A stretch of 37,155 nucleotides of DNA from Candidatus Microgenomates bacterium (GTDB lineage: Bacteria; Patescibacteriota; Microgenomatia; JAADGY01): positions 1-37,155 of the forward strand of contig WFRL01000058.1 in NCBI GenBank assembly GCA_015486555.1. Reading direction: 5' to 3'. Below are positions 12,896 through 27,982 of this stretch, in pieces; positions within the stretch are counted from its first letter, which is position 1; every line of letters starts with the position of its first letter. Below the pieces are notes generated by a model. It saw only the letters and a list, made by a program, of their open reading frames with translations, was not told the DNA's origin and did no database searches. The translations under genes and the position numbers were made by a program.

Positions 12896-13262
12896 GGAAC
12901 TCGGAGCTTGGAGCTTGGAACTTGGAACTCAGAACTTAGAACTTAGAGCTCGGAACTTAGCCTGTTAACGAGTCATTCTGAGGAGCCATAGCGACGAAGA
13001 ATCTAGCGAAGCGCAAAGGTATTAGCACTCAAGTTTTTTTCTAAGCTCTTACTACGGGTTATTAATTGTTTTTCAACCTAGTTCCTCCAACCTAGTTCCT
13101 AGTTCCAATTCCCTGCGCCTTCGGCTAGATCCTTCACTTCGCCTGACGGCTCGTTCAGGATGACACGGGAGATAAGGTTATGGATTTTGGTAATTAGGTT
13201 TTTGATATTGTTTAGGACCTGCCTGCTGGCAGGCAGGTTTAGAGTTTAGGATTTAGGATTTA
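12896..13262. repeat. Cluster R3: 7-nt tandem array (12896-12960), full long-core element (12972-13164), 22-nt palindrome (13217-13238) and TTTAGGA heptamers
   Basis: ARCTYRG heptamers repeated about 9 times. Arms at 12972-13015(+) and 13114-13164(-). ACCTGCCTGCtgGCAGGCAGGT, followed by gtttagg/atttagg/attta. Confidence 0.85.
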
Positions 13263-21449: not shown

Positions 21450-23672
21450 TTAGGCGAACTCAACTTTAAAGGGATAAGCCTGGGTGGCTAGAAGAGGTTG
21501 AGTGAAAATTTTCTGGTGCTTTTTTTCTTGATGGAAGACCTGCCAGATAGCCTCGGTTACGAAGGGGAGAAAAGGATGGAAAAGGGTCAGATAGTTGGCT
21601 AAGAGGGTAGTTAAGAGAGAAATAGCTTGGAGGTCGCCGCCGTAAGCAGTTTCTTTTAAGAACTCGATATCTTGGTCGCAGAATTTATGCCAGAACTGCT
21701 GGCGGAGGTGGTCAGCCGCCTGGCCGTAGCGGAAGTTATTTATCTCTTTCTTATAACCAGTTAAAAACTTTTGATAATCAGCCCAAATTTCCTGATACTT
21801 GATTGGGGTGGTTTTTCCAGGAGAAAAAGGTGATATTTCTTCCTTAATTTTAGAGGTAGTCAGATTAATAAAACGAGAAGCATTCCAGATTTTGTTAGTC
21901 AGGTACTGGCCGGCTTTGAATTTTGACTCGCCTATACTGGTTGACTCTCCTTGGCCGACTCCAGCTACCAAAGCGAAACGGAGGGCATCAGTGCCATACT
22001 TGTCGATGGTTTCTAGGGGGTTAATAACGTTCCCTTTAGATTTGCTCATTTTTTGGCCTTTTTCGTCTCGGACCAGGCCGTGGAGATAAACAATCTTAAA
22101 TGGCACTTGGCCGGTTACTGCTAGCCCTATCATTACCATCCGCGAGACCCAGAGATAAAGAATGTCATAACCAGTTTCCATCACAGTTGTTGGGTAGAAA
22201 ATTTTAAAGTCTTCCTTCGGCTTTTGGTAATCAAAACCAAGAGTGGTAAATGGCCACTGGCTTGAGGAAAACCAAGTGTCAAGAGTATCCGGATCGTGAA
22301 TAAGATGAGTATTCCCACAGTAGGGACATTTCTTCGGTGGCTGGGAACTGACGATGATTTGACCACAGCCTTCAACTTCATTCTTTAACTGGGGGTTCAT
22401 TTCTAATTGGAGAGGAGAAAGAGCTTTTTTGCCGCAGTAATAAACCGGCAAGCGGTGGCCCCACCAGATTTGGCGAGAAAGGCACCAATCTTTGAGATTC
22501 CACACCCAGTCAAGGTAAAGTTTTTTGAATCGAGGGGGGATGAACTTAATCTTACCTTTTTCCACTACCTCGAGAGCCTTTTTAGCCAGAGATTTAGTTT
22601 TCAGCCACCACTGAGTAGAAACCATCGGTTCGATAACTGTTTTGCAACGTTCACAGTGGCCAACATTATGTTCTATCTCTTCTACTTTTACCAAGTAACC
22701 TTCTTTTTTGAGGCGGCTAACTATCTTTTCTCGAGCAACCAATTTAGATGAACCAGCATACTCTCCGGCTTGCTTAGTCATCTTATCGTCAAAGCCAATC
22801 ACCTGTATCCAGGGCAAGTGATGATCTTCTCCAATCTGCCAATCTAGAGGATCATGAGCTGGAGTAATTTTTACCGCCCCAGTGGCAAATTCTTTATCAA
22901 CCCGCTGGTCGCTAATAATAGGAATTTCCCTATCTACTAGAGGTAAGACTAACTTTTTACCAACTAGTTGATGGTAGCGTTTATCCTCTGGATGAACAGC
23001 CACGGCCACATCAGCCAACATGGTTTCTGGTCTGGTGGTGGCGATAGTTAGAGCACCTTCCTCATCCTTGAGAGGGTACTTAATATAGTAGAGATAGCCT
23101 TTATCTTGATGATGCTCAACCTCTAAATCTGAGAGAACTGTTTGGCAGCGAGGGCACCAGTTAATCAAACGTTCCTTGCGGTAAATTAGTCCTTGTTTAT
23201 AGAACTTGACAAAAGTATCTAAAACAACTTTTGAGATTTCTGGGTCAAGGGTAAACTTTTCTCGGCTCCAATCAGCTGAAGCCCCCATCTTTTTAAACTG
23301 GCTAATGATGTTTTTTTTCTGTTCTTGGGTGAATTGATAGCAGGCTTGAAAAAACTTATCTCGGCCAAGATTGAAGCGGCTTTTACCTTCTTTGGCTAGA
23401 TGGCGTTCAAAAACCACTTGGGTTTGAATACCGGCATGGTCCGTTCCTGGCAGGAGAAGAGTTCGGTACCCTGACATCCGGGCCAAGCGTGCCATAATAT
23501 CTTCCAGGGTGATAAATAAGGCATGTCCGATGTGAAGATACCCATTGGCATTAGGTGGAGGCATAATGATGACAAAAGGTTTTCCTTCTTTTTTTGGTTG
23601 AAAAATACCATTCTTCTCCCATAGCTGGTAGATCTTTTCCTCAACTAATTGGGGATGAAAGTGTTTTTCCAT
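21450..23672 (-). CDS. valS: Valyl-tRNA synthetase, short form (740 aa)
   Basis: PPPNANGYLHIGHA (HIGH), KMSKSKGN (KMSKS), TTRPETMLADVAVAVHPED (ValRS editing-domain signature), Zn-type Cys pairs. The protein ends right after the anticodon-binding domain. Confidence 0.93.
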   Translation of the reverse strand: MEKHFHPQLVEEKIYQLWEKNGIFQPKKEGKPFVIIMPPPNANGYLHIGHALFITLEDIMARLARMSGYRTLLLPGTDHAGIQTQVVFERHLAKEGKSRFNLGRDKFFQACYQFTQEQKKNIISQFKKMGASADWSREKFTLDPEISKVVLDTFVKFYKQGLIYRKERLINWCPRCQTVLSDLEVEHHQDKGYLYYIKYPLKDEEGALTIATTRPETMLADVAVAVHPEDKRYHQLVGKKLVLPLVDREIPIISDQRVDKEFATGAVKITPAHDPLDWQIGEDHHLPWIQVIGFDDKMTKQAGEYAGSSKLVAREKIVSRLKKEGYLVKVEEIEHNVGHCERCKTVIEPMVSTQWWLKTKSLAKKALEVVEKGKIKFIPPRFKKLYLDWVWNLKDWCLSRQIWWGHRLPVYYCGKKALSPLQLEMNPQLKNEVEGCGQIIVSSQPPKKCPYCGNTHLIHDPDTLDTWFSSSQWPFTTLGFDYQKPKEDFKIFYPTTVMETGYDILYLWVSRMVMIGLAVTGQVPFKIVYLHGLVRDEKGQKMSKSKGNVINPLETIDKYGTDALRFALVAGVGQGESTSIGESKFKAGQYLTNKIWNASRFINLTTSKIKEEISPFSPGKTTPIKYQEIWADYQKFLTGYKKEINNFRYGQAADHLRQQFWHKFCDQDIEFLKETAYGGDLQAISLLTTLLANYLTLFHPFLPFVTEAIWQVFHQEKKHQKIFTQPLLATQAYPFKVEFA

Positions 23673-23974
23673 TAGTGATGCACCTTTATCTTTTTAACTT
23701 CCTTGCGCAGCCGTTTGGCTACCTCGGTCAAGCCGTTAGTTATTTCCTTAGTAGTCACTTGGGCATAGAAGGTTTTACCTTGCCACTCTAAGCGAGCTTC
23801 TAGTGAGTAATGTTCTGTCTTATCCTTGTCGCAACTAAGAGAGAGGTGAAGAGGTTCTTCTTTTTTAGCAGTTAGGCGGAAGAGTTTAGCGAATCTTTTT
23901 TGAAAAAAGAGTTGAATTAGTTCTTTTTCTTCCTTTCCCAGTTTAGGATAATGAAAACTAAGATTAAGTTTCAT
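23672..23974 (-). CDS. Probable ribosome hibernation factor (HPF/RaiA-like), 100 aa
   Basis: Size and beta-alpha-beta-beta-beta-alpha style pattern (MKLNLSF...FAKLFR...EARLEWQGKTFYAQV...LTEVAKRLRKEVKKIK) resemble HPF/YfiA. The stop overlaps the valS ATG (TAATG). Confidence 0.5.
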   Translation of the reverse strand: MKLNLSFHYPKLGKEEKELIQLFFQKRFAKLFRLTAKKEEPLHLSLSCDKDKTEHYSLEARLEWQGKTFYAQVTTKEITNGLTEVAKRLRKEVKKIKVHH

Positions 23975-24014: not shown

Positions 24015-24275
24015 TTAGTTGTCTTCCTCGAACATCCGCTTAAAAGTAGGATCATTTTCCTTGAGGTACTCAATCAACATAGTGGCATGTTCTTTTTCCT
24101 CATCGCGATTGTGTTCTAAAACCTTTTTCAACCTTTCATCCCTAGTAGCTTCTATTCTTTCTTGATAAAGATTGATAGCATCTAGCTCTTCAATTAAAGA
24201 CTGGCGAGCCCGAGTTAAGTTTTTACTTTTTTCCTCCATTTTAGGAGCATCGTTTAAATCTAAAGGTGGCATCAT
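24015..24275 (-). CDS. Encapsulated-ferritin (EncFtn)-like four-helix/ferritin-like protein (about 86 aa from the SD-preceded ATG)
   Basis: IEELDAINLYQERIEA...LEHNRDEEKEHATMLIEYLKENDP closely resembles the EncFtn core with its E...ExxH metal ligands. AAGGAGG lies just upstream of the ATG ATG at 24275/24272. The longer ORF-track N-terminus lacks an RBS. Confidence 0.7.
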   Translation of the reverse strand: MMPPLDLNDAPKMEEKSKNLTRARQSLIEELDAINLYQERIEATRDERLKKVLEHNRDEEKEHATMLIEYLKENDPTFKRMFEEDN

Positions 24276-24362
24276 TTCCTCCTTGGTTAAGTTAGTAATC
24301 TCTGTTTCTATAATAACATCCATAGGATAGAAATAACCAATTATCAAATTCCAAGGAGACAA

Positions 24363-24516
24363 ATAAGAATAAATCCGAAACTCTAAATTCTAAGCTCCAA
24401 ATAAATTCGAAATCCTAAATCCGAAATCCTAAACCTGCCTGCCGGCAGGCAGGTCCTAAATTCAAATGATCCAAATTCAAAACTTTTTCTCCAGGTCATC
24501 CTGAGGAAGCTGGGGG
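24363..24516. repeat. Cluster R5: CCTAAAT/CCGAAAT-type 7-nt array, 22-nt perfect palindrome (24433-24454), truncated arm (24495-24516)
   Basis: ACCTGCCTGCCGGCAGGCAGGT is a perfect palindrome and the inverted counterpart of 13217-13238. GTCATCCTGAGG starts at 24495. Confidence 0.8.
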
Positions 24517-24560
24517 TTAGTTTAATTAGGAGTGTAGAAGGAAGTGTTAAGATAATAAAT

Positions 24561-25118
24561 ATGAAGTTAAGTCGTCAGCAAGCTTGGCAAAAGTTGAACT
24601 CTTTAATTGATAACCCTAACTTAATCAAACACTGTTTAGCGGTTGAGGCAGCTATGGGTCATTATGCTGATTATTTTAAACTGTCTCCAACCGAAAAGGA
24701 AAAATGGCAGATAACCGGCCTTCTCCATGATGCTGATTGGGAAAAATATCCAGATAAACATCCCCAGGTTATTGTCCAGTGGTTAAAGGACCAAGGGGAA
24801 GATGAGGATGTCATCAATGCTATCGCTGCTCATGGCTTTGAGTTTGGAGTTGAGCCCAAGACTTTGATGGCCCGGGTTTTACGGGCAGTTGATGAACTGA
24901 CTGGTTTAATTGTAGCGGTGGCCTTGGTTAAGGGCCACAAACTAGCTAATGTTCAAGTTAAATCAGTCCTCAAAAAGATGAAAGATAAATCCTTTGCCCG
25001 AGGAGTTAATCGGGAGGATATAAAACAGGGAGCGGAGGAGATAGAACTACCCCTGGAAGAGCATATTGGCCACACCCTCTCCGCCCTTCAAAGCATAGCT
25101 GATGAATTGGAGTTATAA
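24561..25118 (+). CDS. HD-domain phosphohydrolase (185 aa)
   Basis: H...HD signature (KHCLAVEAAM ... GLLHDADWEKYPDKH ... AIAAHG). Confidence 0.8.
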   Translation: MKLSRQQAWQKLNSLIDNPNLIKHCLAVEAAMGHYADYFKLSPTEKEKWQITGLLHDADWEKYPDKHPQVIVQWLKDQGEDEDVINAIAAHGFEFGVEPKTLMARVLRAVDELTGLIVAVALVKGHKLANVQVKSVLKKMKDKSFARGVNREDIKQGAEEIELPLEEHIGHTLSALQSIADELEL

Positions 25119-25276: not shown

Positions 25277-25882
25277 ATGAAAAAAATCGAAACAATCTGG
25301 CACCATATTTTATGGTCGGCCTTGATCAAAAAGCAATATCGCCAAACTCAAAAAGGTTTGGCCCAACAGTTCGCTTATTCTCTAAGTACAGTTCACCATG
25401 CCTTAAAAGTGCCGGTGAAGATAGGAGCAATAAGGAAAGACCACTGGGGGTTTGTTCTCACTGATTTTAAAAAACTCCTTTTTTATTGGGCCAGTGTCAG
25501 AGGTCTGGAAGCCAACATGGTTTACCAAACTTATGTTAACCTGCCGGTAAAAGAGTTGGAGGCTGAGCTCCCTGGTGAAGGAATTTACGGCGGCTATAGC
25601 GCCGCTAGATTTTGGTTTCTAGAGTCCCCAGCCGATTATGACAAGGTTTTTTATTACTTTCAGGATGTTGAGCTGCTGAAGCGCCGATTTCCGCCAAATA
25701 CCCGTTATCCTGCCAATCTTTTTATCCTCAAAACCCAAAATCTTGAGAACTATCGGAAAATTTATCACCAAGAATACACTACCTTGCCCCATACTTTTGT
25801 TGATATTTGGAATCTTTCTGATTGGTATGCCCAAGAATTTATTAAGGCCTTACAAGAAAAAATTGATGAATTATTATTCTAA
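25277..25882 (+). CDS. wHTH protein, AbiEi-like putative antitoxin/transcriptional regulator (201 aa)
   Basis: N-terminal HTH-like segment (YRQTQKGLAQQFAYSLSTVHHALKVPVKIGAIRK) plus a C-terminal domain. Overlaps the downstream nucleotidyltransferase gene by 17 nt. Confidence 0.5.
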   Translation: MKKIETIWHHILWSALIKKQYRQTQKGLAQQFAYSLSTVHHALKVPVKIGAIRKDHWGFVLTDFKKLLFYWASVRGLEANMVYQTYVNLPVKELEAELPGEGIYGGYSAARFWFLESPADYDKVFYYFQDVELLKRRFPPNTRYPANLFILKTQNLENYRKIYHQEYTTLPHTFVDIWNLSDWYAQEFIKALQEKIDELLF

Positions 25883-26474
25883 TCTTATCACTGAAAAAAG
25901 CTGGCAGGAGCTAGGAAGCCTTAAGAGGCTAGTTGACTTTGTCTTGATTGGAGGCTGGGCGGTTTATCTTTATACCCAAGCTTTAAAGTCTAAAGATATT
26001 GACATCCTGATTGGCTATGGACAGCTTGAAAAGTTAAAGCAAAGATATGTAGTCTTTAAAAATGGCCGCTTGAAAAAGTATGAGGCAAGAAGAGGAGAAA
26101 TTCAGATTGATGTTTACCTTCCTTATTATTCTCAGATTGGTATTCCAGTAGAAGATCTGATAAGCCACACAGTAGTCCTTTCCGGATTTACTACTTTGGA
26201 AGTTGAATATCTCCTGACTACCAAAGTTTACGTTCTTTCTCGGCGTCAAAACACCCCCAAGGGTAGGAAAGATCTAGCTGATATCCTCGCTTTGTGGCGT
26301 TATGCCAAGGTAGACCCTGCTTTATTTAAAGCGATAATTCGCCAGTATTCTCTTGGGAAAGAATGGTATTCTTGTCAAAAACAAGTTTATGTTCTAAGCG
26401 ACTTTCCAGAATTAAAACTCAATCATTATACCTTTGCCAGGTTTAAGAAATATTTGCAGCAGGTGGTGGATTAA
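25866..26474 (+). CDS. Minimal Pol-beta-fold nucleotidyltransferase, AbiEii-like putative toxin (202 aa from ATG 25866)
   Basis: hGG-x13-DIDI (VLIGGWAVYLYTQALKSKDIDILI), a third acidic strand (IQIDVYL) and a C-terminal GRKDLADILAL motif. The ORF-track TTG start at 25743 lies inside the upstream gene and is unlikely. Confidence 0.55.
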   Translation: MNYYSNLITEKSWQELGSLKRLVDFVLIGGWAVYLYTQALKSKDIDILIGYGQLEKLKQRYVVFKNGRLKKYEARRGEIQIDVYLPYYSQIGIPVEDLISHTVVLSGFTTLEVEYLLTTKVYVLSRRQNTPKGRKDLADILALWRYAKVDPALFKAIIRQYSLGKEWYSCQKQVYVLSDFPELKLNHYTFARFKKYLQQVVD

Positions 26475-26699: not shown

Positions 26700-27143
26700 A
26701 TGGGACGAGTAGAACCATTATTTTTTGTTTACAGTGGTTTATTTTTTATAATTCTTGAGCTTATCTTGGGAGTAAATACCGGTTTAGATCTTTTTTTAGC
26801 TGGGGTAGCCTTGCTCCTGGGCGGTGGTGTTTTTGCTTTAACTAATGTTCTTTGGACAGCAATAGCAACAGCATTGTTAATAATTATATTGTATTTCGTT
26901 CTTTTTCGAGCCGCCCTCAGAGTGAAATTTGTTTCCCCAGCTACCACCAAGGTAAACATAGATCGTTTAATAGGAAGAGAAGGGATAGTTATTAAAGAAA
27001 TAAAATCTTCCGAAGCGGGCCAAGTTAAGGTAGATAATGAGATTTGGCGAGCGGTGGCGGAGAAAAATCTTAATAAGGGAGAAAAGGTTATAATTAACTC
27101 AGTTGAAGGAGTAACCTTAAAAGTTTATCAAAAGGAGGATTGA
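26700..27143 (+). CDS. NfeD family membrane protein (147 aa)
   Basis: Three N-terminal TM helices and a C-terminal OB-like domain (GREGIVIKEI..GQVKVDNEIWRAVAE..LNKGEKVIINSVEGVTLKV). Upstream partner of an SPFH gene, as in known NfeD-stomatin operons. Confidence 0.8.
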   Translation: MGRVEPLFFVYSGLFFIILELILGVNTGLDLFLAGVALLLGGGVFALTNVLWTAIATALLIIILYFVLFRAALRVKFVSPATTKVNIDRLIGREGIVIKEIKSSEAGQVKVDNEIWRAVAEKNLNKGEKVIINSVEGVTLKVYQKED

Positions 27144-27982
27144 TGACTTTTTTAATTATTCTTCTGGTTTTATTTTTCCTGACTTTAGCAAAGGGGTTAG
27201 TAGTTATCCGTCCCTATGAGAAGGGGTTAGTAATCCGTTTAGGGCGATATCATTCCACCTTGCCAGCTGGTTTGAACTTTATTGTTCCCTTTATTGACTC
27301 AGTGATTAGGGTTGATATGAGAGAACAGGTAATTAATGTAAGCCCCCAACAGGTGATAACTAAAGATAATGTTAGTGTTTTGGTTGATGCGGTGATTTAC
27401 ACGAAAGTAGTTGATCCAGTCAAAGCGGAATTTGAGGTGGAGAATTTTGAGGTAGCTGCTACTACTCTAGCTCAAACAACCCTTCGGAATCTTATTGGAG
27501 ATAAAACGCTGGATGATACACTAGTAGCTCGAGATACCTTAAATACGGCTTTAAGGGAAACATTAGATGAAGTAACTCATAATTGGGGGGTTAAAGTGAC
27601 CCGAGTTGAGTTAAAACGAATCGACCCCCCTGAAGATATTACAGCAGCGATGAGTAAACAGATGAAGGCTGAGAGAGAAAAGAGAGCCGCCATCCTTGAA
27701 GCTGAAGGAATTAAACAGTCGAATATTCTTACAGCTGAAGGAGAAAAACAGGCGGCTATTCTAAAAGCCGAAGGGGAAGCAGAGGCTCTCAGAAAAGTTT
27801 CCGAGGCTGCTGAGAAGTATTTCCGAGAGAGACCTGAGGTACTCAAAAAATTGGAAGTTCTTCAAACGGTTTTAGCTAAGAATACTAAATTTGTAATTCC
27901 TGCTAATGGGGAAGTGATTAATCTCCTTAATTTGGATGGTGAAAAGAAAACAACTGTTTTGCCGAGAAAGAACAAAGCCTAA
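27143..27982 (+). CDS. SPFH/band-7 (stomatin/prohibitin-like) protein
   Basis: N-terminal TM, then VVIRPYEKGLVIRLGRY..., the SPFH core and a coiled-coil tail of (AE/IL)EAEG repeats. The ATG at 27143 overlaps the NfeD TGA (TGATG) and follows AAAGGAGGA. Confidence 0.9.
   Translation: MTFLIILLVLFFLTLAKGLVVIRPYEKGLVIRLGRYHSTLPAGLNFIVPFIDSVIRVDMREQVINVSPQQVITKDNVSVLVDAVIYTKVVDPVKAEFEVENFEVAATTLAQTTLRNLIGDKTLDDTLVARDTLNTALRETLDEVTHNWGVKVTRVELKRIDPPEDITAAMSKQMKAEREKRAAILEAEGIKQSNILTAEGEKQAAILKAEGEAEALRKVSEAAEKYFRERPEVLKKLEVLQTVLAKNTKFVIPANGEVINLLNLDGEKKTTVLPRKNKA

What the first reader, a model, noticed from the sequence alone, without database searches (positions are those of the whole stretch)
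24015..24275. Encapsulated-ferritin-like gene without an encapsulin shell gene or visible targeting peptide
The core LEHNRDEEKEHATMLIEYLKENDP, with an upstream EEL...Y.ERIE, is the EncFtn-type ferroxidase motif set. EncFtn proteins are normally encoded next to an encapsulin shell gene and carry a C-terminal targeting peptide. Here the protein ends about 10 aa after the last helix (FKRMFEEDN). The neighbours are an HPF-like gene and an HD hydrolase. So this is either a free-standing EncFtn, whose decamers oxidise iron but cannot store it, or its shell is encoded distantly.
Basis: partly seen in the sequence, partly recalled or inferred. Interest (0 to 1): 0.6.

Follow-up and report, generated by a model that had tools for sequence, protein, structure and literature searches.

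The report
Shell-free mini-ferritin in an ultra-small bacterium
This is a real, well-conserved 85-residue gene for a ring-forming iron-oxidising "encapsulated-ferritin-like" protein, and neither this genome nor its closest relatives' genomes encode the protein shell such proteins are usually packed into; this shell-less class is already known but has never been studied biochemically.

Summary
Window 24015-24272 (- strand; alternative ATG at 24275) encodes an 85-aa protein. It matches Pfam EncFtn-like (PF22277) at 93 bits and keeps every ferroxidase-centre residue. Its AlphaFold model superposes on R. rubrum EncFtn (5DA5) and NE0167 (3K6C) at about 0.9-1.0 A. The protein ends at the third helix and has no linker or targeting peptide.

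The 711-kb, 88.65%-complete Patescibacteria-type genome has no encapsulin or HK97-type capsid gene. None of 301 sampled genomes of the phylum has a shell above cut-off.

I surveyed 84 other genomes that carry close homologues:
- All 6 with long, targeting-peptide tails have a shell gene directly downstream.
- Only 1 of 55 with the 3K6C-type tail has a shell, and it lies elsewhere in the genome.
- None of 23 with the window's "EHD"-type tail has a shell (24 with G000).

So this is a free-standing EncFtn-like protein. That class is already known ("Non-EncFtn", He 2016; "s-FLP", Eren 2024). The window's protein sits in a distinct, shorter clade shared by CPR bacteria and DPANN and other archaea.

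It is the only ferritin-superfamily gene found in the genome and is under purifying selection (dN/dS about 0.07). The most likely function is a decameric ferroxidase that removes Fe(II) and oxidants without storing iron; this is inferred, not shown. Verdict: new member of a known kind, modest interest.

The parts
24015..24272 (-). CDS of the 85-aa EncFtn-like half-ferritin. An alternative ATG at 24275 gives 86 aa. Stop TAA at 24017-24015.
   Evidence: PF22277 at 93.1 bits. Best PDB hits are 3K6C at E = 3.5e-18 and 5DA5 at E = 3.7e-15. AF2 pLDDT 89.7. Foldseek rmsd 0.9-1.0 A to 5DA5 and 3K6C. Start fixed by comparison with L029 and L111. dN/dS about 0.07 against L029.
24278..24284 (-). Ribosome-binding site AAGGAGG, 5 nt before the conserved ATG (24272).
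   Evidence: Read from the sequence. Conserved in L029 and L111.
24186..24191 (-). Codons for E28 and E29. These correspond to R. rubrum EncFtn E31 (entry site) and E32 (ferroxidase-centre ligand).
   Evidence: Alignment to 5DA5 with offset +3 in 85-aa numbering. Invariant in 27 homologues. Codon positions.
24165..24167 (-). Codon for Y36 (R. rubrum Y39, the conserved tyrosine next to the ferroxidase centre).
   Evidence: Residue roles are taken from PMC5012862.
24087..24113 (-). Codons for the H54-N-R-D-E58-E59-K-E61-H62 block. E59 and H62 correspond to R. rubrum E62 and H65 (ferroxidase-centre ligands). H54, E58 and E61 correspond to H57, E61 and E64 (putative exit site).
   Evidence: Invariant in 27 homologues. 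Aligned to 5DA5 and 3K6C. Codon positions.
24018..24029 (-). Last four codons, E-E-D-N. 118 of the 120 closest homologues have His as the penultimate residue (117 end in His-Asp); this copy has lost it.
23672..23974 (-). Downstream 100-aa gene, 40 nt after the EncFtn-like stop. Weakly HPF/YfiA-like and probably co-transcribed.
   Evidence: Pfam S30AE E = 0.017 and TIGR00741 E = 0.01, both below cut-off. No terminator-like site on the - strand between the genes. The same gene order is found in L029 and L111.
21450..23672 (-). Valyl-tRNA-synthetase-like gene (740 aa). It follows the 100-aa gene with an overlapping stop/start. This is context only.
   Evidence: Its orthologue in L111 carries tRNA-synt_1 and Anticodon_1.
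24363..24560 (.). Intergenic region upstream of the gene. It holds one copy of a genome-wide palindromic repeat (core CCTGCCTGCCGGCAGGCAGG at 24434-24453). The gene's promoter must lie in or just downstream of this region, between 24276 and about 24560; none was recognised.
24561..25118 (+). Divergent HD-domain phosphohydrolase gene. This is context only, and the linkage is not conserved in relatives.
   Evidence: PF01966 E = 1e-9, TIGR00277 HDIG. Absent next to the homologues.

Best explanation
The gene encodes a shell-independent member of the EncFtn-like half-ferritin family.

Shown here:
- The protein has the two long antiparallel helices and the short third helix of EncFtn.
- It keeps all ligands of the di-iron ferroxidase centre (E29, E59, H62, plus Y36) and of the flanking entry and exit sites.
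- It ends at the third helix, with no linker or targeting peptide.
- Its genome, its clade and its phylum lack encapsulin shells.
- It is under purifying selection.
- It is the only ferritin-superfamily gene detected in the assembly.

Inferred from established knowledge of EncFtn (R. rubrum, H. ochraceum, P. furiosus, and the decameric crystal form of NE0167/3K6C):
- Two chains pair to build one ferroxidase centre at their interface.
- Five such dimers form an annular decamer.
- The ring oxidises Fe(II) with O2 or H2O2 but has no cavity to hold mineral.

In this fermentative, 0.7-Mb, ultra-small bacterium the ring would act as a catalytic scavenger. It would lower labile Fe(II) and oxidants, and so Fenton damage, rather than store iron. 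The Fe(III) product would be released or passed to unknown acceptors.

Gene context in relatives fits a role in metal and oxidative stress. In two CPR lineages the gene sits in a cluster of Fur, ZnuABC-like, ZIP, YibE/F, thioredoxin, DUF134 and DUF5320 genes. In some archaeal and bacterial relatives it lies next to peroxiredoxin, rubrerythrin or Usp genes.
For: Family and residues:
- PF22277 scores 93 bits. TIGR04535 matches only model positions 5-79 of 114 and falls below its cut-off, so the linker and targeting-peptide part is missing.
- 45% identity to both 3K6C and 5DA5 over the core, with every ligand aligned. These positions are invariant in 27 homologues.

Fold: pLDDT 89.7. Foldseek top hits are 5DA5 and 3K6C, TM 0.76-0.79, rmsd 0.9-1.0 A.

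No targeting-peptide motif.

No shell:
- Own genome.
- 0 of 301 phylum genomes above cut-off.
- Survey of homologue-bearing genomes: tails of 55 aa or more, 6/6 with an adjacent shell; tails of 38-49 aa, 1/55 with a shell, elsewhere in the genome; tails of 33 aa or less, 0/24 counting G000.

Other points:
- Only ferritin-superfamily gene in the genome.
- Selection: dN 0.035, dS 0.479 against L029.
- Context.
- Literature: EncFtn without its shell oxidises iron but does not store it; the 3K6C decamer; the Non-EncFtn / s-FLP class.
Against: - No biochemical data exist for any shell-less EncFtn homologue. 3K6C is an unpublished apo structure.
- Decamer formation and ferroxidase activity were not tested here. 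Only a monomer could be modelled.
- The assembly is 88.65% complete, so absence of a shell in this genome alone is not proof.
- Only Pfam models of encapsulin families 1 and 2 and the phage capsid family (the Pfam model I assigned, from memory, to family 3) were searched. Family 4 (A-domain) shells and very divergent HK97 folds were not.
- The metal-homeostasis context seen in relatives is absent here: no Fur, ZnuA, ABC-3, ZIP or YibE/F by tblastn.
- The local gene order (100-aa gene, ValRS, helicase-nuclease) says nothing about iron.
- This copy lacks the penultimate His that 118 of 120 homologues keep, so it may not be fully typical of its clade.
Confidence: 0.75

Rival explanations
1. The protein is still a cargo. 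Its shell is either encoded in the unassembled roughly 11% of the genome or is too divergent for the Pfam models. The short C-terminus would act as an unrecognised binding peptide, as PMC11202242 considered possible for s-FLPs.
For: The assembly is 88.65% complete in 86 contigs. The review notes that a short tail would not sterically prevent encapsulation and lists LFTD(E/N)KPIAHE as a putative targeting peptide. One s-FLP-type genome (G350, locus L078) does carry a family-1 shell elsewhere.
Against: 0/24 genomes with this tail type and 0/301 genomes of the phylum have a shell above cut-off, including many that are 97-100% complete. The same searches found the shell in 6/6 relatives with long, targeting-peptide-type tails. 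The window protein lacks even the LFTDKPIAHE tail and matches no targeting-peptide pattern. Its last residues are modelled as helix, not as a free peptide.
Confidence: 0.04
2. The ring is not primarily a ferroxidase. It could use its di-iron site for other chemistry or for sensing, for example peroxide or O2 reduction like rubrerythrin. Or it could act as a metal-sensing partner of the DUF134 putative DNA-binding protein that sits next to it in several lineages.
For: DUF134 (with a sigma-70 region-4-like HTH) is adjacent in 6 of 26 'EHD'-clade loci, in both CPR bacteria and Woesearchaeota. Peroxiredoxin, rubrerythrin and Usp genes are neighbours in some loci. There are weak sub-threshold similarities to Rubrerythrin and COQ7. 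Product Fe(III) has nowhere to go without a shell.
Against: All residues that define the EncFtn ferroxidase centre and its entry and exit sites are conserved. Every EncFtn assayed so far is a ferroxidase, even without its shell. No rubredoxin-like or other electron-donor domain is fused or consistently adjacent. In this genome DUF134 lies on another contig.
Confidence: 0.15
3. The gene is a decaying remnant of an encapsulin operon that lost its shell and targeting peptide, and it no longer functions.
For: The distribution is patchy: 3 of 61 close relatives and 3 strong hits in 301 phylum genomes. This copy has lost the conserved penultimate His.
Against: dN/dS is about 0.07 against a relative diverged at dS of about 0.48. 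Length is fixed at 85 aa in 101 of 120 homologues, and 29 columns are invariant across 27 sequences. The frame is intact with a good ribosome-binding site. The 'EHD' clade is a coherent, well-supported group (SH-aLRT 96) spanning bacteria and archaea.
Confidence: 0.02

Closest known systems
NE0167 of Nitrosomonas europaea (PDB 3K6C), the archetype of 'Non-EncFtn' (He et al. 2016, PMC5012862) and 's-FLP' (Eren et al. 2024, PMC11202242)
   Same: It is the best PDB sequence hit (E = 3.5e-18, 45% identity over 71 residues). It shares the same fold and the same ferroxidase-centre residues. It lacks a Gly/Ser linker and a targeting peptide. In my survey, genomes with this type lack a shell (1 of 55 has one, elsewhere).
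   Different: NE0167-type proteins are about 95 aa and end in a conserved ...DYLFTDKPIAH(D/E/K) tail. The window protein is 85 aa, stops 9 residues earlier (...MFEEDN; clade consensus ...MFEEHD) and lies in a separate clade (SH-aLRT 96). That clade is made up of CPR bacteria, archaea (DPANN, Hadarchaeota and others) and a few other bacteria, rather than Proteobacteria.
Canonical encapsulated ferritins (R. rubrum Rru_A0973, 5DA5; H. ochraceum, 5N5F; TIGR04535)
   Same: 45% identity over the core. rmsd 0.9 A over 70 residues. Identical ferroxidase-centre, entry-site and exit-site residues, except E34 replaced by D31.
   Different: It has no 10-40-aa disordered linker, no SLGIGSLK-type targeting peptide and no adjacent or distant shell gene. 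It scores 91.3 against the TIGR04535 cut-off of 125 and matches only model positions 5-79 of 114.
Archaeal EncFtn-encapsulin fusions (P. furiosus PFC_05175, 5N5E/2E0Z)
   Same: The same half-ferritin domain (E = 3.5e-6 and 2.9e-5).
   Different: [quoted passage not shown] Here it stands alone and is much closer to the bacterial types.
Classical ferritin / bacterioferritin / Dps (PF00210) and rubrerythrin (PF02915)
   Same: The same superfamily and the same E...ExxH di-iron logic. An EncFtn dimer mimics their four-helix bundle (PMC5012862).
   Different: The window protein is a two-helix half-domain. It scores below both gathering cut-offs (19.6 against 24.5; 21.5 against 22.8). It has no 24-mer or 12-mer cage and no rubredoxin domain.

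Membership tests
EncFtn-like half-ferritins (Pfam PF22277) | Profile match above the curated cut-off | tested here: met
   93.1 bits against a cut-off of 27, E = 9.4e-27, covering profile positions 7-79 of 85.
EncFtn-like half-ferritins (Pfam PF22277) | Two long antiparallel helices plus a short third helix | tested here: met
   AF2 model with pLDDT 89.7 and helices 6-42, 46-73 and 75-84. Foldseek to 5DA5 and 3K6C gives rmsd 0.9-1.0 A and TM 0.76-0.79.
EncFtn-like half-ferritins (Pfam PF22277) | Ferroxidase-centre ligands Glu, Glu-x-x-His and the nearby Tyr (R. rubrum E32, E62, H65, Y39) | tested here: met
   E29, E59, H62 and Y36 align to them and are invariant in 27 homologues.
EncFtn-like half-ferritins (Pfam PF22277) | Metal-dependent annular decamer with ferroxidase activity | not testable with these tools
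   Only a monomer could be modelled. Inferred from 45% identity to the decameric 3K6C and 5DA5.
Encapsulin cargo ferritin (FLP-TP; TIGR04535) | C-terminal disordered linker ending in a targeting peptide (SLGIGSLK, LTVGSL, or consensus [LF]x[VI]xx[LI]) | tested here: not met
   The protein ends at helix 3. No pattern matches anywhere, and there is no Gly or Ser in the last 15 residues. TIGR04535 model positions 80-114 are unmatched, and the score of 91.3 is below the cut-off of 125.
Encapsulin cargo ferritin (FLP-TP; TIGR04535) | Encapsulin shell gene adjacent or elsewhere in the genome | tested here: not met
   No PF04454, PF19307 or PF05065 hit at E <= 10 in G000. 0/301 in the phylum. 0/24 in the clade, while 6/6 long-tailed (targeting-peptide-type) relatives have the shell adjacent. 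Caveats: the genome is 88.65% complete, and family 4 shells were not searched.
s-FLP / Non-EncFtn of the 3K6C type | EncFtn core without a targeting peptide and without a shell in the genome | tested here: met
s-FLP / Non-EncFtn of the 3K6C type | Conserved C-terminal LFTD(E/N)KPIAHE tail (Table 2 of PMC11202242) | tested here: not met
   The window protein and its whole clade stop 9 residues earlier (tail of 30 against 39 residues after RDEEKEH). They form a separate clade in the tree (SH-aLRT 96).
Classical ferritin/Bfr/Dps (PF00210) and rubrerythrin (PF02915) | Profile match above the curated cut-off | tested here: not met
   19.6 bits against 24.5, and 21.5 bits against 22.8.

The most novel reading that the evidence does not exclude
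The 85-aa 'EHD-tail' proteins would be a distinct, minimal, shell-independent iron and oxidant detoxification ring exchanged between ultra-small CPR bacteria and archaea (DPANN, Hadarchaeota and others). In this reading they are often controlled together with the DUF134 putative regulator. The near-invariant C-terminal His-Asp, and the equivalent His at the end of 3K6C-type tails, would be a functional metal hand-off or binding site on the outside of the ring rather than a targeting peptide. This would be a solution to the 'no storage cavity' problem that differs from encapsulation. The window's copy, which has lost that His, would be a natural variant for testing the idea.
Probability: 0.15. 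Interest if true: 0.55.

Novelty: new member of a known kind. Interest (0 to 1): 0.3.

Why it matters
Shell-less EncFtn homologues have been recognised since 2016, but none has been characterised biochemically. A 2024 review still leaves open whether they are encapsulated through an unrecognised peptide.

The survey done here bears on that question. In the 85 genomes (G000 included), tail length predicts whether a shell is present:
- 6/6 with tails of 55 aa or more have a shell.
- 1/55 with the 3K6C-type tail has one.
- 0/24 with the 'EHD'-type tail have one (G000 included).

This argues that both short classes really work without a compartment.

The gene is also the only ferritin-superfamily member found in a 0.7-Mb episymbiont-type genome. 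It is a compact candidate for how ultra-small, fermentative cells handle Fe(II) and oxidants, and an easy 85-residue target for expression and assay. Apart from that, the finding is an ordinary accessory gene of a known family.

Tried and rejected
There is therefore no read-level check of expression, of a transcription start, or of the unusual EEDN C-terminus.
- The sigma-70 promoter and terminator scan found no promoter for the gene on the - strand and no terminator between it and the 100-aa gene. I could not define the promoter.
- I read the upstream region for a Fur box. Only a half-site-like ATTATCA is present, and the genome has no detectable Fur, so I dropped the idea.
- tblastn of the Gottesmanbacteria metal-cluster proteins against G000 found only generic ABC ATPases and one DUF134 (C42), which is not linked to this gene.
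- Neighbour clustering across 87 loci was noisy for high-GC loci because of spurious long ORFs. Only the clusters confirmed with Pfam are used here.
- Class-I aminoacyl-tRNA synthetase genes lie near the gene in three lineages. I judged this probably chance and did not test it further.
- Literature searches for EncFtn together with Patescibacteria/CPR/DPANN listed no paper holding both (the top-ranked hits had no EncFtn term). The DUF134 search returned only irrelevant hits.
- The longer reading frames (115 aa from TTG at 24362; 102 aa from ATG at 24323, as in the database gene call P0001) are rejected. The extension is frame-shifted in L029 and absent in the homologues.

Full report
**What is there.** The finding lies on the - strand. 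The open frame runs from 24362 to the TAA stop at 24017-24015, but the real gene is shorter. An AAGGAGG ribosome-binding site at 24284-24278 precedes an ATGATG pair. In the 94%-identical relative L029 there is a single ATG at the position of the second one, and a one-base difference shifts the upstream frame. In L111 (81% identical) the upstream sequence is unrelated. 101 of the 120 closest database homologues are exactly 85 aa. The gene is therefore 24015-24272 (85 aa).

**Family assignment.**
- Pfam gives EncFtn-like (PF22277) at 93.1 bits, E = 9.4e-27. Rubrerythrin, COQ7 and Ferritin all fall below their cut-offs.
- NCBIfam TIGR04535 (encapsulin-associated ferritin-like protein) matches only model positions 5-79 of 114. 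At 91.3 bits it falls below the cut-off of 125, so the linker and targeting-peptide part of the model has no counterpart.
- Against PDB sequences the best hit is NE0167 (3K6C, E = 3.5e-18). Next come R. rubrum EncFtn (5DA5), H. ochraceum EncFtn, M. xanthus EncC/EncB and the P. furiosus fusion.
- Identity to both 3K6C and 5DA5 is 45% over the core.
- In 85-aa numbering, E29, Y36, E59 and H62 align with the R. rubrum ferroxidase-centre residues E32, Y39, E62 and H65. E28 and D31 align with the entry site (E31, E34). H54, E58 and E61 align with the exit site (H57, E61, E64). The roles of these residues are as stated in PMC5012862.
- All of these positions except D31 (conserved in at least 90% of the sequences) are invariant in an alignment of 27 homologues.
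- An AlphaFold2 model built on that alignment has mean pLDDT 89.7, with helices 6-42, 46-73 and 75-84. Its top Foldseek hits in the PDB are 5DA5 and 3K6C, with TM 0.76-0.79 and rmsd 0.9-1.0 A.

**No targeting peptide.** The protein ends one residue after the predicted third helix. The last 15 residues contain no Gly or Ser. None of the published targeting-peptide patterns ([LF]x[VI]xx[LI], GSLK/R, [LIV]G[ST][LM], LGI/L; Table 2 of PMC11202242) occurs anywhere in the sequence.

**No shell.**
- The window belongs to a 711-kb assembly of 86 contigs, estimated 88.65% complete.
- Six-frame searches of that assembly at E <= 10 found nothing for family-1 encapsulin (PF04454), family-2 (PF19307) or phage/HK97 capsid (PF05065). 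The named control genomes did score.
- Because the assembly is incomplete, I extended the test. In 301 genomes sampled across the phylum, 20 have an EncFtn-like hit. None has PF04454 above cut-off; the single 19.7-bit fragment contains a stop codon.
- I then fetched 80 loci encoding the closest homologues from species-representative genomes. I measured the length of the tail after the RDEEKEH motif and searched the 80 genomes, plus four CPR genomes, for PF04454.

| Tail after RDEEKEH | Type | Genomes with a shell |
|---|---|---|
| 55 aa or more | long tail, three with clear GSLK / GLTIGGL-type motifs | 6 of 6 (L070, L093, L094, L098, L101, L107), shell 100-300 nt downstream |
| 38-49 aa | 3K6C-like, ...DYLFTDKPIAH(D/E/K) | 1 of 55 (L078/G350), not adjacent |
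| 33 aa or less | the window's type | 0 of 24, counting G000 |

- The positive controls show that the search finds shells when they exist.

**Where the protein sits in the family.**
- A maximum-likelihood tree of 109 sequences (84 columns, so many forks are unresolved) places all tails of 33 aa or less in one clade (SH-aLRT 96). Within it, a CPR subclade of 29 rows (98) contains the window.
- The rest of that clade is mostly archaeal: Woesearchaeota, Micrarchaeota, Aenigmatarchaeota, Hadarchaeota, Thermococci and Methanosarcinales. It also includes a small bacterial group containing Acididesulfobacter.
- Named close homologues come from Gottesmanbacteria, Roizmanbacteria and Beckwithbacteria.
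- The distribution is patchy. The gene is present in the one other genome of the same genus, absent in two other genera of the same family, and present in 1 of 56 other genomes of the class. Only 3 of 301 phylum genomes have a strong hit.
- This pattern and the mixed-domain clade suggest horizontal transfer. The tree is unrooted, so the direction cannot be told.
- In a search of 1.84 billion representatives at 50% identity, 706 scored E <= 1e-3. Among the best 150, about 41 have 3K6C-like tails, 12 have shorter tails (7 of them ending EHD), 62 have long tails and 4 are fusions. Shell-less forms are a substantial part of the family.

**Selection and peculiarities.**
- Against L029, dN = 0.035 and dS = 0.479, which indicates clear purifying selection.
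- 118 of the 120 closest homologues have His as the penultimate residue (usually ...EHD). 36 of the 55 tails of 38-49 aa (mostly 3K6C-type) also have a His within the last three residues.
- The window's copy ends ...EEDN. It is one of two exceptions, and the other is a truncated sequence. The function of this His is unknown. Since these genomes have no shell, it is unlikely to be part of a targeting peptide.

**Context.**
- In the window the gene is followed on the same strand, after 40 nt, by a 100-aa gene. That gene is only weakly HPF-like and below cut-offs. Then come ValRS and a UvrD/PD-(D/E)XK helicase-nuclease with overlapping junctions.
- No terminator-like site separates these genes. 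The same order occurs in L029 and L111.
- Further relatives differ. One has the gene inside a mur cluster, and another has it next to tsaD.
- Two CPR lineages have it inside a cluster of DUF5320, DUF134, YibE/F, EncFtn-like and thioredoxin genes joined to Fur, ZnuA, ABC and ZIP genes.
- Across 26 loci of the clade, DUF134 (with a sigma-70 region-4-like HTH) is adjacent in 6, including Woesearchaeota. ZIP is nearby in 3. Peroxiredoxin, rubrerythrin or Usp genes are nearby in several.
- In G000 these partners are missing or unlinked. tblastn finds no Fur, ZnuA, ABC-3, ZIP or YibE/F. A DUF134-DUF5320 fusion lies on contig C42.
- G000 also has no other ferritin, Dps, bacterioferritin or rubrerythrin. 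The only hits to PF00210, PF02915 and PF22277 are this gene, whereas all 14 control genomes have a PF00210 member.

**Mechanism.**
- Established for EncFtn (PMC5012862, PMC11202242): two chains build a di-iron ferroxidase centre at their interface, and five dimers form an annular decamer in a metal-dependent way. The ring oxidises Fe(II) even without a shell but cannot hold the mineral. NE0167, which has no targeting peptide, also crystallises as a decamer.
- Inferred here: the same assembly and chemistry apply, given 45% identity and complete conservation of ligands. The ring works free in the cytoplasm as a catalytic scavenger of Fe(II) and of O2 or H2O2, as the only ferritin-superfamily defence of this reduced genome.
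- Not shown here: oligomeric state, activity, the fate of Fe(III), regulation and expression.

**Comparison with what is known.** Shell-less relatives were named 'Non-EncFtn' in 2016 and 's-FLP' in 2024. The 2024 review considered that the LFTD(E/N)KPIAHE tail might be an uncharacterised targeting peptide. The window protein meets the definition of the EncFtn-like family. It fails the defining features of encapsulin cargo (targeting peptide, shell). It differs from the 3K6C type by lacking that tail and by clade. I found no paper that discusses EncFtn homologues in CPR or DPANN organisms, and no biochemical study of any shell-less member.

**Verdict.** This is a new member of a known, uncharacterised subclass, in a somewhat distinct short-tailed clade. 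It would not greatly surprise a specialist. It is a convenient test case for what EncFtn rings do without a compartment. Interest 0.3.

Noticed in passing
window 24363-24560 (core 24434-24453) and 13218-13237; 25 copies in G000: A palindromic intergenic repeat with core CCTGCCTGCCGGCAGGCAGG. It is flanked by short TCCTAAA(T/C)-type repeats and, further out, by GTCATCCTGA.../...TCAGGATGAC-like ends. It occurs 25 times (3 or fewer mismatches) in the 711-kb genome, often within a few hundred bases of contig ends. It looks like a MITE- or REP-like element that breaks the assembly.
   Followed up: partly
loci L004-L019 (e.g. L008, L007, L012): A second, more distant family of stand-alone EncFtn-like proteins of about 90 aa in Patescibacteria (MLSQLPINLEKV...LRAGIIAELDAINLYEQMA...KEEKTHVGEFQALLL...GKKEVEE). 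16 of the 301 sampled genomes have it, scoring about 25-36 bits on PF22277, and none of those genomes has a shell.
   Followed up: partly
window 24018-24023 (last two codons): This copy ends ...EEDN, where 117 of 120 close homologues end ...H-D. The change is two single-base substitutions relative to L029 (CAC to GAC, GAC to AAC).
   Followed up: partly
L024, L027, L038, L044, L050, L053: DUF134 (a small protein with a sigma-70 region-4-like HTH) is adjacent to the EncFtn-like gene in both CPR bacteria and Woesearchaeota/Methanosarcinales-labelled MAGs. ZIP transporter and thioredoxin-like genes are often nearby. This is a possible conserved regulatory pairing across domains.
   Followed up: partly
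window 24270-24275: A tandem ATGATG start is created by a one-base insertion relative to L029. The database gene call for this protein (P0001, 102 aa) uses an upstream ATG that is not conserved.
   Followed up: yes
window 25277-26474: Overlapping 201-aa (weak wHTH) and 243-aa (AbiEii-like nucleotidyltransferase, PF08843 E = 1.7e-4, just below cut-off) genes. This is an AbiE-like toxin-antitoxin-type pair.
   Followed up: no
window 26700-27982: A classic NfeD (PF01957) and SPFH/Band 7 (PF01145) gene pair with overlapping stop and start.
   Followed up: no
G000 contig C42, about 150-628: A single frame combines a DUF134 domain with a Cys-rich, DUF5320-like tail (...CVCTNPKCNY...CPKCGSPM). These two are separate adjacent genes in Gottesmanbacteria.
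   Followed up: no
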